Positions 55,601-61,600 of a stretch of DNA of 64,000 bases are shown piece after piece. The stretch lies in NCBI RefSeq assembly GCF_058153355.1, contig NZ_CM177019.1; one strand, given 5' to 3'. A program made the position numbers. Positions within the stretch are counted from its first letter, which is position 1; every line of letters starts with the position of its first letter.

Positions 55601-58600
55601 TATAGCCAATATCTGGCGTTTGTTTGTCTGCGGCGTCTGGGAATGCGCAAATGGAATAACCGTTCAGTGGGTTATCGCTGTGGCGAAGCGCCAGAAATGC
55701 CGCTGGGCCGTGGCAAAGGGAGATAACAAAACGGTCATTTTTGATTGCCCACTGTAAAGCGGCAGCTACGTCCTGGCTTTCTGGTAAACCAATAAGTGCG
55801 CCATGACCACCAGGAACAAAGATTGCTGCATATTCGCTGTCAGCATTGAGGCTGGCGACAATATCCGCGAGTTTCTTCGGATTGCGGAACAACGATTTAT
55901 GCTGCTCAAAGAACGGCATTACCTTTTCATCTTTGTGTGGCATAGCCCAGTATTCAAACTTGGTCATCAGGCCGGAAATGGTCGCCACTTCGAATTCGAA
56001 ACCTGCCGCATGGAGATGATACAACGGTAGCAACGTTTCAATCGGATGGTTACCGGTTGAGAACAATTTGCCATTGTCGGTCGGCAAATAACGTTCGTCC
56101 GCGGCGATCACCAGAATTTTGTGTTTACCGCGATACGGTTTTGGATAGTCCACGCCATCAAGATCAGAGACAGGACTGGTATATTGGCTAAGCGAATATT
56201 CTGAAGGGAAAAATGCATTATCTTCAGCAGTATCGACCTGCGGATCTTTACTTTTTTGAACAGTCATAGTGTATTCCTTGTTGTTGCTTAGTTAGGTTAG
56301 TCACTATATTTGCGACTGAGCTGGTCGCTATTTTTAACCAGGCTGGAAAATTGAGTCAATATATCGAAAGCGGTAGGCGACGAGGGAAAATATGTAATGA
56401 TGATGCTGCACTGATGTTGAATGTTTCTCACGCCAAATTTTCCTTTTTGAGTCATGTGGTCACAAGTGACTTCAATGATTTTAGACCATTATCAGAGGTC
56501 TGGGACGACGATGAGAGATTTAGTGCTATGGAATATTGTTATTCTGTTGAATATTTATATCCCGGACTGCTATAGAAAAGGCTTTTTTCATGCACTATTT
56601 TTGCAAATATTTTTATATGGGAGGCGGTTTTGTTGCGGATTAATTCATAAGAATGCGCATTTAGTGAGTTGGCTGGAAGAGTTACTGGTAGATGTTAGTG
56701 AGCCAGGTAGTGCAGGGTAATGTGCCATATCGATATGCTTTGGCAATGGCGCGTTTTGTAGATGAAAAGCCAAAAAAAGCCTGAATTCGATGAAAGGACG
56801 AACTCAGGCTAGTGTTATGTTTTACAGTAACACGCCGAGGCGTGTTGGCTGATTAGAACTGGTAGACTAAGCCCACAGCAACGATATCATCGGTAGCGAT
56901 GCCGTTTGCTTCGTAGAAGTCATCATCGTTGTCCAGCAGGTTAATTTTGTAATCAACATAGGTGGACATATTTTTGTTGAAGTAGTAGGTCGCACCGACT
57001 TCAACGTATTTAACCAGATCTTTGTTAGTGTAACGCGGGTCGCCGTTGCCGTCATGAGCCCAGCCGCCTAAATCCTTACCTTTAGATTGCAAGTAAGCGA
57101 TGGACGGGCGCAGACCGAAGTCGAACTGATACTGAGCAACAACTTCAAAGTTTTGGGTTTTGTTAGCGATGGCTGATCTTGAATCACCATTAGCAAACTC
57201 GCCACCACCATATGGGGTCATATTGCGAGTTTCAGCGTACATAGCTGCTAAATACACATTATTAGCATCATATTTTGCACCAACAGTCCATGCTTCAGCG
57301 GTTTCACCACCAGCATTTCTGTTGCTATGGTTACGATCATTTAAACCAACTCCAACCTGATGATCTGAACGATCAGAGTTTGAATATGCAGCACCCAGAT
57401 TTAAACCGAAGTCGAAGTCGTAGGATGTAGACATACCGAAACCATCACCATTTTCTTTGGAAAGGCTACGGCCATCACCACTACCGGAACCTTCCTGCCC
57501 GAATGGTCCACCACTTTCATTATTACCCTGATATTGTAAAGCAAAGTTCAAGCCATCAACCTGACCAAAGAAGCCATTATTACGGTAGGTTGCAACACCG
57601 TTGGTACGACCGTTCATGTAGTTGTCGGCACCCGCGTAGGTATCGCCACCAAATTCTGGCAGCATATCGGTCCATGCTTCGATGTCATATACGACACCGT
57701 AGTTACGACCATAATCGAAAGTACCATTCTGACCAAAACCTAAACCTGCGAATGCCAGACGGGTAGCTGAGTTATCTCCATCGCCTTCTGTGCCATTTGC
57801 TTGAAGGTTGTATTCCCACTGACCATAGCCAGTGAACTGGTCAGCGATTTGTGTTTCGCCTTTGAAACCGATACGGGCATATGACATATCGCCATCAGCG
57901 CCCGAGTTGTCAGAGAAGTAGTGCAGACCTACTACTTTTCCGTATAAATCCAGTTTATTGCCATCTTTATTATAAATTTCAGCCGCATTTGCTGCGCCAG
58001 CAACTAATAACGCCGGGACCAGCATTGCCAGAACTTTTCTTTTCATTATGTATTCCCTTGTGATTATAATCTTCATGAATATAACAATAAGTGCCGTTAT
58101 CCAAAAAAAAGCACATTTGGATACTATTCTATGAAGTTCATTTTATTTTAAGGATTACATGTAACAAATGTATTTAAAAGATTGCAAAATGTTTCTAATC
58201 TATTTAATATAATTCATGCAAATGAATTATGAATATAACCATTCATGATGGTTATGGATGTATATCAATGAGTTATGAATTTTATGGAAAGATAGGGAGT
58301 GTCAATGATTTTTGCGCCAGACGGCCTATGTGATCGCGCGCACATTAATGAAGGCATAAAAAAAGCCGGCATCATGCCGGCCCAAAAAATATAAACAAGA
58401 CGATAAAAGGCTAATAACGGGGTTATCATGACACAGAAATCTAAAAAGGTATAATTGTATTCAGTGCTAATGTATTGTTTGGGTGAATTAATAAAACCAT
58501 TATCCAAGATAAAAATAAATCTTTATTGCTGTTTTTCCGGTAATTATTGCCGTTGCGCAAAAACTATCTATTTGCTCAAAAAATGATTGAGTCTTGACTG

Positions 58601-61600
58601 ACTCATCCAATGTGGAAAAATGTGACTTTTATCACATAATAGTACTAAGTCTGAATTTTCCAGGTTATCTCAAAATGGAGTACGGTTCGACAAAGATGGA
58701 AGAGAGACTCTCTCGCAGCCCTGGCGGCAAATTGGCTTTGTGGGCTTTCTATACATGGTGTGGCTATTTCGTCTGGGCAATGGCGCGATACATCTGGGTG
58801 ATGAGCCGGATCCCCGATGCCCCCGTGTCGGGATTTGAAAGTGATTTAGGATCTACTGCGGGGAAGTGGTTAGGAGCATTGGTCGGATTTCTGTTTATGG
58901 CCCTGGTTGGTGCCTTGCTAGGCGGCATTGCCTGGTACACCCGACCTCGTCCCGCACGTAGCAGACGCTATGAATAAAAACTGCTAAGGTTGCGACTCTT
59001 TGGCAACGGAGCGCGTATGGACTTACAACACTGGCAGGCACAGTTCGAAAACTGGTTGAAAAACCATCATCAACATCAGGACGCGGCACATGCCCTGTGT
59101 CATTTTCGCCGTGTCTGGGCTACGGCACAGAAACTGGCGGCAGATGACGACGTTGATATGCTGGTGATTTTAACCGCTTGTTATTTTCACGATATCGTGA
59201 GCCTGGCGAAAAATCATCCGCAACGGCAGCGTTCTTCAATACTGGCAGCAGAAGAGACGCGTCGCCTGCTGCGTGAAGAATTCGCGCAATTTCCAGCGGA
59301 AAAAATCGAGGCTGTTTGCCATGCCATTGCCGCACACAGTTTTAGCGCGCAAATTGCCCCTTTAACGGTGGAAGCTAAAATCGTTCAGGATGCGGATCGG
59401 CTGGAAGCTCTGGGGGCGATTGGCCTGGCGCGTGTGTTTGCCGTTTCGGGGGCGTTGGGCGTGGCATTGTTTGATGGCGAAGATCCGTTCGCGCAGAATC
59501 GCCCACTTGATGATAAACGTTACGCGCTGGATCATTTTCAGACTAAGTTGCTGAAGCTACCGCACACCATGCAAACCATAAAAGGCAAACAACTGGCGCA
59601 GTACAACGCGCAATTTTTAGTCGAGTTTATGGCGAAGCTCAGTGCCGAGCTGGCGGGAGAGAATGAAGGTATCGATCACAAAGTGATTGATACGTTTTCA
59701 CCGGTTGGCTGAGCGCGTGGCCCTAAATGATGGTAATTATGTTAACCTGTCGACCATCTCAGATGGCCGGTTAAATCTATGCAGGAAAATATATCAGTAA
59801 CCGATTCATACAGTACCGGGAATGCCGCACAGGCAATGCTGGAGCAACTGCTGCAAATTTATGATGTCAAAACGCTGGTGGCGCATCTTAATGGTGTGGG
59901 TGAGAATCACTGGAGCGCGGCAATTTTAAAACGTGCGCTGGCGAATGACTCAGCATGGCACCGTTTAAGTGAGAAAGAGTTCGCCCATCTGCAAACGTTG
60001 TTACCCATTCCACCGGCACATCATCCGCATTATGCGTTTCGCTTTATCGATCTATTTGCCGGGATTGGTGGTATTCGTCGCGGTTTTGAATCGATTGGTG
60101 GGCAGTGCGTGTTTACCAGCGAATGGAACAAACATGCGGTACGCACTTATAAAGCCAACTATTATTGCGACCCGGCGGCGCATCACTTTAATGAAGATAT
60201 TCGCGACATCACTCTCAGCCACAAAGAGGGTATAGGTGATGACGCGGCGGCGGAACATATCCGTCAACATATTCCTGAGCACGATGTTTTACTGGCCGGT
60301 TTTCCTTGTCAGCCGTTTTCTCTGGCTGGCGTATCGAAAAAGAACTCACTCGGACGAGCGCACGGTTTTGCCTGTGATACCCAGGGCACGCTGTTCTTCG
60401 ATGTGGTGCGTATTATCGACGCGCGTCGCCCGGCGATTTTTGTGCTCGAAAACGTCAAAAACCTGAAAAGCCACGACCAGGGGAAAACGTTCCGTATCAT
60501 CATGCAGACGTTGGACGAACTGGGCTATGACGTGGCAGATGCAGAAGATAATGGCCCGGACGATCCGAAAATCATTGACGGTAAACATTTCCTTCCGCAG
60601 CACCGTGAACGCATCGTGCTGGTGGGTTTTCGTCGCGACCTGAATCTGAAAGCCGATTTTACCCTGCGTGAGATCAGCAAATGTTTCCCTGCACAGCGAG
60701 TGACACTGGCGCAGTTGCTGGACCCGATGGTTGAGGCGAAATATATCCTGACGCCGGTGCTGTGGAAGTACCTCTATCGTTATGCGAAAAAACATCAGGC
60801 GCGCGGTAACGGCTTCGGTTATGGAATGGTTTATCCGAACAATCCGCAAAGCGTCACGCGTACGCTTTCTGCTCGTTATTACAAAGATGGCGCGGAAATT
60901 TTAATTGATCGCGGCTGGGATATAGCCACGGGTGAGAAAGACTTTGACGATCCGCAGAACCAGCAACACCGCCCACGTCGGTTAACGCCTCGTGAATGTG
61001 CGCGCTTAATGGGCTTTGAAGCACCAGGAGAAGCGAAATTTCGCATTCCGGTTTCGGACACTCAGGCCTATCGCCAGTTCGGTAACTCGGTGGTCGTGCC
61101 GGTCTTTGCCGCGGTGGCAAAACTGCTTGAGCCAAAAATCAAACAGGCAGTGGCGTTGCGTCAGCAGGAAGCAAAACATGGCCGACGTTCACGATAAGGC
61201 TACACGCAGCAAAAATATGCGCGCAATTGCCACGCGCGATACGGCGATTGAGAAGCGCCTCGCCAGTTTGTTAACCGGGCAGGGACTGGCGTTTCGCGTT
61301 CAGGATGCCAGTTTGCCCGGACGCCCGGATTTTGTTCTTGATGAATATCGCTGCGTGATATTTACCCACGGTTGCTTCTGGCACCATCATCACTGCTATC
61401 TGTTTAAAGTGCCCGCGACTCGAACCGAGTTCTGGCTGGAGAAGATAGGTAAAAATGTTGAGCGCGATCGCCGCGACATTAGCCGCTTGCAGGCGCTCGG
61501 CTGGCGTGTATTGATTGTCTGGGAGTGCGCGTTACGCGGGCGCGAAAAATTGACGGATGCGGCACTTACCGAGCGTCTGGAAGAGTGGATCTGCGGCGAA

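What the first reader, a model, noticed from the sequence alone, without database searches (positions are those of the whole stretch)
58294..58612. Orphan minus-strand terminator and short RBS-preceded ORF in the yedS-yedR intergenic region
The palindrome gccggcatcatgccggc is followed on the minus strand by a T7 run with no minus-strand gene upstream of it. On the plus strand a 29-codon ORF (MIFAPDGLCDRAHINEGIKKAGIMPAQKI, 58305-58394) with RBS AGGGAG runs through it. This could be an unannotated small RNA or small-protein locus, or simply an insulating terminator for the porin promoter.
Basis: seen in the sequence. Interest (0 to 1): 0.25.

Follow-up and report, generated by a model that had tools for sequence, protein, structure and literature searches.

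The report
Known small RNA RseX, not orphan
The "orphan" terminator is the normal 3' end of RseX, a well-known 90-nt E. coli regulatory RNA that sits upstream of the yedS porin gene, and the short ORF on the opposite strand is a chance reading frame, so the locus is ordinary and already described.

Summary
The sequence features are real: palindrome GCCGGCATCATGCCGGC at 58365-58381, a T7 run after it on the minus strand, and a 29-codon plus-strand ORF at 58305-58394. The terminator is not orphan. Rfam matches rseX (RF01401) full length on the minus strand at 58358-58447 (99.8 bits, threshold 50, E 1.9e-14), ending in that hairpin and U-tail. The curated MG1655 record annotates rseX (b4603) at the same position between drpB (yedR) and yedS. 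The window copy is identical to K-12 from nt 29 to the terminator, and the -10 TACAAT is conserved. PGAP records leave the region blank, which explains why it looked unannotated. Published work shows RseX is an Hfq-dependent, H-NS-silenced sRNA that represses ompA, ompC, fimB, ihfB and, through its terminator loop, fepA. The antisense ORF is not a gene. Its frame is broken by 1-nt indels in K-12, O157 and IAI1, it has early stops in three genomes, its SD is lost in other species, and no protein family matches it. Its only conserved patch is a CRP-binding site (58329-58344) that CRP footprints in vitro in K-12. Verdict: already known, low interest.

The parts
58358..58447 (-). rseX sRNA gene, 90 nt (91 nt in K-12, which has one more U in the tail); 5' end UUUUUAGAUUUCUGUG...
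   Evidence: Rfam RF01401, 99.8 bits vs gathering 50, E 1.9e-14, model 1-94/94. Syntenic with MG1655 ncRNA rseX b4603 2033649..2033739. 92% identical to K-12 overall and identical from nt 29 to the terminator.
58365..58381 (-).
   Evidence: Invariant in 13 distinct Escherichia RseX sequences, 100% of cells paired, no covariation. The loop is required for fepA repression in K-12 (PMC11979758).
58358..58364 (-). U7 tail of the terminator (A7 on the plus strand, A8 in K-12-type alleles)
   Evidence: sRNA terminator U-stretches are described as strong Hfq-binding sites in PMC11979758.
58382..58409 (-). Single-stranded U-rich linker CUUUUAUCGUCUUGUUUAUAUUUUUUGG (nt 39-66), identical to K-12
   Evidence: Unpaired in the Rfam consensus and in the MFE fold. 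Nearly invariant across Escherichia except for a 7-nt deletion in strain P276M.
58410..58434 (-). RseX stem-loop 1 (nt 14-38); stem conserved, loop variable between strains
   Evidence: Rfam structure line; pair counts 96-98% paired, with variation confined to the loop.
58435..58447 (-). RseX 5' single-stranded end; differs from K-12 at nt 7-9 (GAU vs UUA)
   Evidence: The 'region 1' that PMC8313858 selected for fimB/ihfB target prediction is presumably near this 5' end (its coordinates are not given in the text read).
58454..58459 (-). RseX promoter -10 hexamer TACAAT, 6 nt upstream of the 5' end; the -35 is poor (CCAAAC at 58482..58477)
   Evidence: Read. Conserved in K-12 and kept as TAnnAT in most other Escherichia. 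A sigma70 promoter supported by 5' RACE is cited in PMC8313858.
58305..58394 (+). 29-codon ORF antisense to the RseX 3' half; judged non-coding
   Evidence: Frame broken by 1-nt indels in K-12, O157, IAI1, I3 and G749; stops at codons 8-10 in E. whittamii, Z0117 and P276M; SD lost outside E. coli. No Pfam or NCBIfam hit. Only automated 'hypothetical protein' calls in public data. No CDS in the curated MG1655 record.
58329..58344 (.). CRP-binding site TGTGATCGCGCGCACA, 14 nt beyond the RseX 3' end and upstream of yedS; this is the conserved patch inside the ORF
   Evidence: The K-12 homologue ggTGTGAtcaggcGCACAtta at 2033766 is footprinted by CRP in vitro, Kd ~4.9 nM, assigned to yedS (PMC12871828).
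56853..58046 (-). yedS, OmpC-family porin, intact here (pseudogene in K-12 and O157); downstream neighbour on the same strand as rseX
58675..58977 (+). drpB (yedR), divergent neighbour
   Evidence: start codon as established in PMC7648144.

Best explanation
The hairpin plus T-run is the Rho-independent terminator of rseX, a known trans-acting, Hfq-dependent small RNA of Escherichia. Inferred by homology to K-12: transcription starts at 58447 from a weak sigma70 promoter (-10 TACAAT at 58459..58454) inside an AT-rich, H-NS-silenced intergenic region, runs on the minus strand and ends in the U7 tail at 58358-58364, giving a ~90-nt RNA. The RNA has a U-rich 5' end, a small stem-loop, a U-rich single-stranded linker and the terminator hairpin with its U-tail. 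Shown in K-12 by published experiments: when expressed (multicopy, or in hns/stpA mutants), RseX with Hfq represses ompA and ompC, also fimB and ihfB, and represses fepA through the loop of this same terminator hairpin in an Hfq- and RNase E-dependent way. The plus-strand 29-codon ORF is a chance frame laid over the RseX 3' half and a CRP-binding site.
For: Rfam rseX match, full length, 99.8 bits against a gathering score of 50, E 1.9e-14, with its 3' end on the hairpin and U-run. The curated MG1655 record annotates ncRNA rseX b4603 between drpB and yedS, on the same strand as yedS, as here. The alignment to K-12 is identical from nt 29 to the terminator, and the -10 and 5' end are conserved. 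A terminator is called by the mechanical scan, and the RNA folds into stem-loop 1 plus terminator, dG -19.2, z -2.1. Full-length rseX hits at the syntenic spot in E. albertii, E. whittamii, two unnamed Escherichia species and diverse E. coli (59.8-99.8 bits), with no hit in the four non-Escherichia loci that matched the DNA pattern by chance. The RseX segment is the best-conserved part of the yedS-proximal intergenic region: 67% invariant columns against 30-48% in the three adjacent segments (the drpB-proximal segment reaches 69%). It is present in 4879 of 5426 complete E. coli genomes. GC is 0.28-0.36 against about 0.5 in the flanks, which fits H-NS silencing. Literature: 91-nt RseX, OmpA/OmpC repression, H-NS/StpA silencing, fimB and ihfB targets (PMC8313858); terminator-loop-dependent fepA repression (PMC11979758); locus map yedS'-rseX-drpB (PMC7648144).
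Against: No expression data for this strain can be obtained with these tools, and even in K-12 the native transcript is undetectable unless H-NS is removed. The -35 region is poorer here (CCAAAC) than in K-12 (TTAATC). Base-pair covariation is absent because the stems are invariant, so the structure rests on conservation and on the Rfam model. Unconstrained duplex predictions with the ompA and ompC leaders were no better than shuffled RseX. Nt 7-9 differ from K-12, so pairing through the 5' end (possibly including that reported for fimB/ihfB) may differ.
Confidence: 0.97

Rival explanations
1. The plus-strand 29-codon ORF (58305-58394) with its AGGGAG SD encodes a functional small protein, overlapping rseX in antisense.
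For: The ATG is conserved in all 16 sequences compared, an SD-like AGGGAG or GGGGG lies 5 nt upstream in most E. coli, and residues CD-AHIN are conserved. Automated pipelines have called it 'hypothetical protein' on hundreds of contigs.
Against: The C-terminal half changes frame between alleles (…KKAGIMPAQKI vs …KKSRHHAGPKNINKTIKG) because of A7/A8 and A5/A6 run-length indels. Length varies over 7, 9, 28, 29, 36 and 41 aa, with premature stops in E. whittamii, Z0117 and P276M. Codons 3-9 are hypervariable and the SD is lost in E. albertii, E1V33, E69 and MOD1. The conserved ATG sits in the conserved TCAATGA motif, and the CD-AHIN patch is the CRP site that is footprinted in K-12. No Pfam or NCBIfam hit at E<=10. 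The curated MG1655 annotation has no CDS there. The names attached to the automated calls are plainly spurious ('30S ribosomal protein S8', 'Phage protein').
Confidence: 0.03
2. The hairpin exists mainly as an insulator that shields the yedS porin promoter from upstream minus-strand transcription; the sRNA is incidental.
For: The terminator lies upstream of yedS on the same strand, about 310 nt from the yedS start codon. Any read-through from rseX or from spurious promoters in the AT-rich region would stop there.
Against: The whole 90-nt unit is conserved, not only the hairpin, and it is conserved even where yedS is a pseudogene (K-12, O157) or truncated by an IS element (strain I3). The RNA has demonstrated trans-acting functions, including one that needs the terminator loop. 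The only plausible source of minus-strand transcription into the hairpin is the rseX promoter itself, because drpB, yedJ, dcm and vsr are all on the plus strand.
Confidence: 0.05
3. The hairpin is a bidirectional terminator or a repeated extragenic palindrome (REP/BIME-like element).
For: It is a perfect G+C-rich palindrome flanked by A-runs on the plus strand.
Against: It is unique in the 64 kb; the only other match has 3 mismatches. On the plus strand it is followed by CCCAAAAAA with no T-run, so it cannot act as an intrinsic terminator in that direction.
Confidence: 0.01

Closest known systems
RseX sRNA of E. coli K-12 (b4603; Rfam RF01401)
   Same: Same locus (between drpB/yedR and yedS, on the yedS strand). 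Same length to within 1 nt, same 5' end, same -10, and identical sequence from nt 29 through the terminator. Full-length covariance-model match.
   Different: Three substitutions at nt 7-9 in the 5' single-stranded end. Four differences at nt 24-27, giving a potentially longer stem-loop 1 (AUGAUAAC/GUUAUUA register). U7 instead of U8 tail. Poorer -35. The neighbouring yedS is intact here but a pseudogene in K-12.
Porin-linked sRNAs MicF (next to ompC) and MicC (next to ompN)
   Same: A small Hfq-dependent sRNA that represses major outer-membrane proteins and is encoded next to a porin gene (own knowledge for MicF and MicC; RseX targets from PMC8313858).
   Different: rseX is on the same strand as its porin neighbour and upstream of it, not divergent. 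It is silenced by H-NS rather than induced by a known envelope regulator. No sequence relationship: Rfam gives no MicF or MicC hit here.
SdsR and ArrS 3' ends (terminator-loop-dependent fepA repression)
   Same: In K-12 the RseX terminator loop, like those of SdsR and ArrS, is needed to repress fepA through the far 5'UTR, depending on Hfq and RNase E (PMC11979758). The loop and stem are unchanged in this window.
   Different: These are different RNAs with no shared sequence family. The mechanism is unresolved, and the authors found no direct pairing.

Membership tests
RseX sRNA (Rfam RF01401) | Sequence-plus-structure match to the family covariance model at or above the curated gathering score | tested here: met
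   99.8 bits vs 50, E 1.9e-14, model positions 1-94 of 94, not truncated.
RseX sRNA (Rfam RF01401) | Genomic position between drpB (yedR) and yedS, on the yedS strand | tested here: met
   Window: yedS 56853-58046 (-), rseX 58358-58447 (-), drpB 58675-58977 (+). MG1655 has the same order and relative strands. Same in 14 other Escherichia loci.
RseX sRNA (Rfam RF01401) | Rho-independent terminator with U-tail at the 3' end (the Hfq-binding module of class I/II sRNAs) | tested here: met
   9-bp stem with 6 G-C pairs, 3-nt loop, U7 tail. Invariant in 13 distinct sequences.
RseX sRNA (Rfam RF01401) | Own sigma70 promoter and a 5' end matching the mapped K-12 5' end | tested here: met
   -10 TACAAT lies 6 nt upstream of the position homologous to b4603 nt 1 and is conserved with K-12. 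This is a sequence-level test only; activity was not tested.
RseX sRNA (Rfam RF01401) | A ~90-nt transcript actually made (seen in K-12 only when H-NS/StpA are removed) | not testable with these tools
   No expression data available. The AT-rich composition (GC 0.28-0.36) fits H-NS binding. Literature: PMC8313858.
RseX sRNA (Rfam RF01401) | Hfq-dependent repression of ompA and ompC (also fimB, ihfB, fepA) | tested here: inconclusive
   Unconstrained RNA duplex prediction against the K-12 ompA and ompC leaders was no better than shuffled RseX (z from -1.0 to +0.3). That test is too crude to decide. nt 29-90, including the terminator loop implicated in fepA control, are identical to K-12.
Bona fide small protein gene (sORF) | Reading frame, length and stop conserved among relatives | tested here: not met
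   Frameshifted C-terminus in K-12, O157, IAI1, I3 and G749; stops at codons 8-10 in three genomes; lengths from 7 to 41 aa.
Bona fide small protein gene (sORF) | Conserved ribosome-binding site and start | tested here: not met
   The ATG is conserved, but within a DNA motif (TCAATGA) conserved on its own account. The SD is lost in E. albertii, E1V33, E69 and MOD1-EC7003.
Bona fide small protein gene (sORF) | Membership of a curated protein family or a curated annotation | tested here: not met
   No Pfam or NCBIfam hit at E<=10. No CDS in curated MG1655. Only automated 'hypothetical' calls.
Bona fide small protein gene (sORF) | Ribosome occupancy or a detectable peptide | not testable with these tools
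   Needs Ribo-seq or epitope tagging.

The most novel reading that the evidence does not exclude
The rseX promoter may be one arm of a symmetric bidirectional promoter. The best sigma70 match in the region is on the opposite strand (ATGACA-N16-TATAAT, 58428-58455, 11 of 12). Its -10 abuts the rseX -10, and it would fire towards drpB about 15 nt from the rseX start. It could give an unannotated plus-strand leader or ncRNA of about 200 nt, and RNAP competition there could contribute to RseX being silent. The unit is bracketed by two high-affinity CRP sites (58329-58344 and 58621-36). Separately, the complete invariance of the terminator loop from E. albertii to E. coli could reflect selection on the recently reported loop-dependent regulatory function.
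Probability: 0.15. Interest if true: 0.3.

Novelty: already known. Interest (0 to 1): 0.07.

Why it matters
It matters little as a discovery. RseX has been known since 2002-2006, is in Rfam and is annotated in the K-12 reference. The practical lesson concerns annotation. NCBI's PGAP leaves rseX unannotated in the E. coli RefSeq records examined here, so a reader going from sequence or from a PGAP feature table sees an 'orphan' terminator. Automated gene callers meanwhile sometimes call the antisense chance ORF as a hypothetical protein, occasionally with nonsense names. The locus does show, modestly, that the hairpin recently implicated in fepA control is invariant across Escherichia species, and that the allele next to an intact yedS porin carries a variant 5' end.

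Tried and rejected
(1) RNA duplex prediction (ViennaRNA duplexfold) of window and K-12 RseX nt 1-66 against the K-12 ompA (-133..+30) and ompC (-81..+30) leaders and the window's yedS leader. Energies were no better than 300 dinucleotide shuffles (z -1.0 to +0.8), and the duplexes were sprawling and uninformative. The test is too crude and was dropped. (2) Covariation test of the Rfam structure and of the alternative MFE register on 13 distinct sequences. The stems are invariant or change on one side only. The single 'compensatory' cell comes from the mis-aligned, deletion-bearing P276M allele. There is no real covariation signal in either direction. (3) The original RseX paper (Douchin et al. 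2006, doi 10.1074/jbc.M600819200) is not held, so the mapped 5' end and the ompA/ompC data are cited second-hand from PMC8313858, PMC7648144 and the MG1655 annotation. (4) Of the nine genome contigs pattern hits, four (Desulfobacterales, Bacteroidales, Paenibacillus, Nostoc) gave no rseX hit with Rfam and were rejected as chance. The exact-pattern scan could miss diverged homologues; PMC8313858 mentions Citrobacter, citing Rfam. (5) REP-like repeat and bidirectional terminator were rejected. (6) The second terminator-like hairpin at 58588-58605 (-) was rejected as a conserved structure. Its perfect inverted repeat exists only in this haplotype, and changes in other genomes are not compensated. 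(7) A minus-strand -35 TTGACA at 58305..58300, under the ORF's ATG, was considered as a yedS promoter element, but no acceptable -10 follows at 16-18 nt (read). This is left open.
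Full report
1. The observation. GCCGGCATCATGCCGGC lies at 58365-58381, preceded on the plus strand by A7 (58358-58364) and followed by CCCAAAAAA. Read on the minus strand, this is GGGCCGGCAUGAUGCCGGCUU followed by U7. The mechanical scan calls it an intrinsic terminator with 9 pairs, 6 of them G-C, and a 3-nt loop; it found 2 such sites in 901 nt against 0.5 expected. The palindrome is unique in the 64-kb window, so it is not a REP-type repeat. The plus-strand ORF MIFAPDGLCDRAHINEGIKKAGIMPAQKI (58305-58394, or 31 aa from GTG 58299) with AGGGAG upstream is also present. ORFs of this size are everywhere, however: 82 ORFs of at least 25 aa overlap the surrounding 6 kb. The flanking genes are hchA, an intact yedS-type porin (56853-58046, minus), drpB (yedR; 58675-58977, plus), yedJ, dcm and vsr, so 'yedS-yedR intergenic region' is correct.

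2. What it is. The statement that no minus-strand gene lies upstream of the terminator is wrong. A scan against Rfam gives a full-length match to rseX (RF01401) on the minus strand at 58358-58447: 99.8 bits against a gathering score of 50, E 1.9e-14, model positions 1-94 of 94. The match ends in the hairpin and U-run. The curated MG1655 record annotates ncRNA rseX (b4603, 2033649..2033739) in the same position between drpB and yedS, on the yedS strand. Aligned to K-12, the window copy is identical from nt 29 (CCGUUAUUAGCC...) through the terminator. The 5' end (UUUUUA...) and the -10 hexamer TACAAT, 6 nt upstream of it, are conserved. The differences are limited to nt 7-9, nt 24-27 in the loop of stem-loop 1, and one U fewer in the tail. 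The RNA folds into the expected small stem-loop plus terminator (dG -19.2 kcal/mol, z -2.1). PGAP-annotated RefSeq records carry no feature here: 'none' under the match in all 40 records listed, and the same. That is why the locus looks unannotated from most feature tables.

3. Distribution and conservation. The 131-nt stretch containing rseX is found in 4879 of 5426 complete E. coli genomes. An exact-pattern scan of one genome per bacterial and archaeal species, using the RseX core, returned nine loci. The five from Escherichia (E. albertii, E. whittamii, E. coli E69, Escherichia sp. E1V33 and MOD1-EC7003) are all full-length rseX by Rfam (86.7-95.2 bits). The four from unrelated phyla give no rseX hit and are chance matches. 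In a 16-sequence alignment of the intergenic region, the RseX segment has 67% invariant columns. The three neighbouring segments between yedS and the drpB-proximal region have 30-48%, and the drpB-proximal segment has 69%. The terminator stem and loop are invariant in all 13 distinct RseX sequences, and stem-loop 1 keeps its pairs while its loop varies. There is therefore no covariation to weigh, and the structure rests on conservation and on the Rfam model. One strain, P276M, carries a 7-nt deletion in the single-stranded core and scores only 59.8 bits.

4. How it works. The anatomy is shown here and the function comes from the literature on K-12. According to the papers read, RseX is a ~91-nt sRNA first predicted computationally. 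It down-regulates OmpA and OmpC in an Hfq-dependent manner, enhances survival when sigma-E activity is lacking, and has a sigma70 promoter supported by 5' RACE (PMC8313858; PMC7648144). Its native transcript is undetectable in wild type and appears in hns mutants, more strongly in hns stpA mutants. It also represses fimB and ihfB through pairing that point mutations in RseX relieve; the authors chose those targets from predictions using an accessible 'region 1' whose coordinates are not given in the text read. A 2024 study showed that RseX represses fepA through its 3' end alone (RseX+52). This needs the exposed nucleotides of the terminator loop, Hfq and RNase E, and apparently no direct pairing to fepA (PMC11979758). 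In this window the intergenic region is strongly AT-rich (GC 0.28-0.36 against about 0.5 in the flanks), and the -35 region is poor (CCAAAC). From this I infer that this allele is also silent under ordinary conditions. Because nt 29-90 are identical to K-12, functions assigned to the middle and 3' parts, including the loop-dependent fepA effect, should be retained. Because nt 7-9 differ, any pairing through the 5' end may be altered. These are inferences. My attempt to test pairing with the ompA and ompC leaders by unconstrained duplex prediction was uninformative.

5. The ORF. It does not behave like a gene. Reading from the homologous ATG gives 29 aa in the window-type alleles and in NU14. 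K-12, O157, IAI1, I3 and G749 give 36 aa with a frameshifted tail (KKSRHHAGPKNINKTIKG), because the A-run that is RseX's U-tail is 8 rather than 7 nt. Two Escherichia species give 41 aa and E. albertii 28 aa. E. whittamii, Z0117 and P276M give only 7-9 aa because of early stops. Codons 3-9 are hypervariable, and the SD is lost in four of the non-window lineages. Neither version matches Pfam or NCBIfam at E<=10, and curated MG1655 has no CDS there. Exact look-up shows that automated pipelines have sometimes called it, as 'hypothetical protein' or with spurious names such as '30S ribosomal protein S8' and 'Phage protein'. That reflects gene-caller behaviour and is not evidence of function. The only conserved stretch, encoding CD-AHIN, coincides with the palindrome TGTGATCGCGCGCACA (58329-58344). 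This is one of only five matches with at most one mismatch to TGTGA-N6-TCACA in the 64 kb, against 1.97 expected. Its K-12 homologue at 2033766 is listed among high-affinity CRP footprints (Kd ~4.9 nM, assigned to yedS) in a 2026 Footprint-seq preprint (PMC12871828). The conservation is therefore that of a protein-binding DNA site.

6. Rivals. Four alternatives were weighed. (a) A functional small protein is rejected on the grounds in section 5 (about 3%). (b) A terminator whose main purpose is to insulate yedS is possible as a by-product, since rseX lies upstream of yedS on the same strand. However, the whole 90-nt unit is conserved even where yedS is a pseudogene or is IS-truncated, and the RNA has demonstrated trans functions. 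(c) A REP-type element or bidirectional terminator is rejected, because the palindrome is unique and has no T-run on the plus strand. It is probably not a structural element.

7. Comparison with what is known, and verdict. This is a member of the RseX family. The model match, synteny, terminator and promoter/5'-end criteria were all tested and met. Expression cannot be tested here, and target repression was tested only by an inconclusive in-silico duplex prediction. It resembles the porin-linked sRNAs MicF and MicC in logic but is on the same strand as its porin neighbour and is H-NS-silenced. Novelty: already known. Interest is low. The points with residual value are an annotation gap in PGAP, the cross-species invariance of a terminator loop recently shown to be regulatory, a variant 5' end in the allele linked to an intact yedS, and the side observations listed separately.

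Noticed in passing
window 58329-58344 and 58621-58636: Two CRP-type sites bracket rseX: TGTGATCGCGCGCACA just beyond its terminator, on the yedS side, and a perfect TGTGACTTTTATCACA upstream of drpB. Both are conserved across Escherichia species. They are 2 of only 5 matches in the 64 kb. Their K-12 homologues are high-affinity in vitro CRP footprints (2033766, ~4.9 nM; 2033477, ~1.9 nM; PMC12871828). Which genes they regulate was not determined.
   Followed up: partly
window 58428-58455 (+): The best sigma70 consensus match in the region is on the strand opposite to rseX: ATGACA-N16-TATAAT, 11 of 12. Its -35 lies inside the RseX transcribed sequence, and its -10 (58450-58455) abuts the rseX -10 (58454-58459). 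It would start transcription near 58462 towards drpB. It is conserved in 14 of 15 sequences, but this could simply reflect constraint on rseX. It may be a bidirectional promoter.
   Followed up: no
window 58613-58640 (+): The promoter-like TGGAAA-N16-CATAAT falls inside the interval (old GTG-1 at 58612 to ATG at 58675) that PMC7648144 maps as containing the drpB promoter. The perfect CRP site at 58621-58636 overlaps its spacer and -10, which would suggest CRP repression of drpB rather than activation.
   Followed up: no
window 56853-58046 (-): The yedS OmpC-family porin gene is intact here (397 aa from MKRKVLAML). It is a frameshifted pseudogene in K-12 and O157 and is IS3-truncated in strain I3.
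   Followed up: partly
window 58491-58570: The part of the intergenic region upstream of the rseX promoter exists as sharply different haplotypes. It is 100% identical to strains N96 and 2013C-4282 and 94% to Z0117, but only 70-74% identical to K-12, O157, IAI1 and NU14. The adjacent drpB-proximal 105 nt are 94-98% identical in all E. coli. This suggests recombination or allele replacement at the porin-proximal side.
   Followed up: no
window 58303-58309: TCAATGA, which contains the ORF's ATG, is invariant in all 16 sequences. On the minus strand it reads TTGACA or TTGATA, a -35-like hexamer pointing to yedS, but no convincing -10 follows at 16-18 nt. Its function is unknown.
   Followed up: no
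window 58588-58605 (-): A second terminator-like hairpin, TGAGTCAGTCAAGACTCA followed by ATCATTTTTT. It overlaps a plus-strand TTGACT. The inverted repeat is perfect only in this haplotype and is not maintained by compensatory change elsewhere.
   Followed up: partly
L014 3020-3099 (E. coli P276M): A natural rseX allele with a 7-nt deletion in the conserved single-stranded core (GCCUUUUAUCGUCUU becomes CCUUCCUU), a 2-nt insertion near the 5' end and a loss of GGG before the terminator. It scores 59.8 bits against 87-100 for the others and may be a decaying copy.
   Followed up: no
L002 and L013 (E. coli N96, 2013C-4282): In the two strains whose rseX region is closest to the window, an IS5-family pseudogene and hypothetical genes replace hchA beyond the porin. 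The window keeps hchA next to yedS.
   Followed up: no
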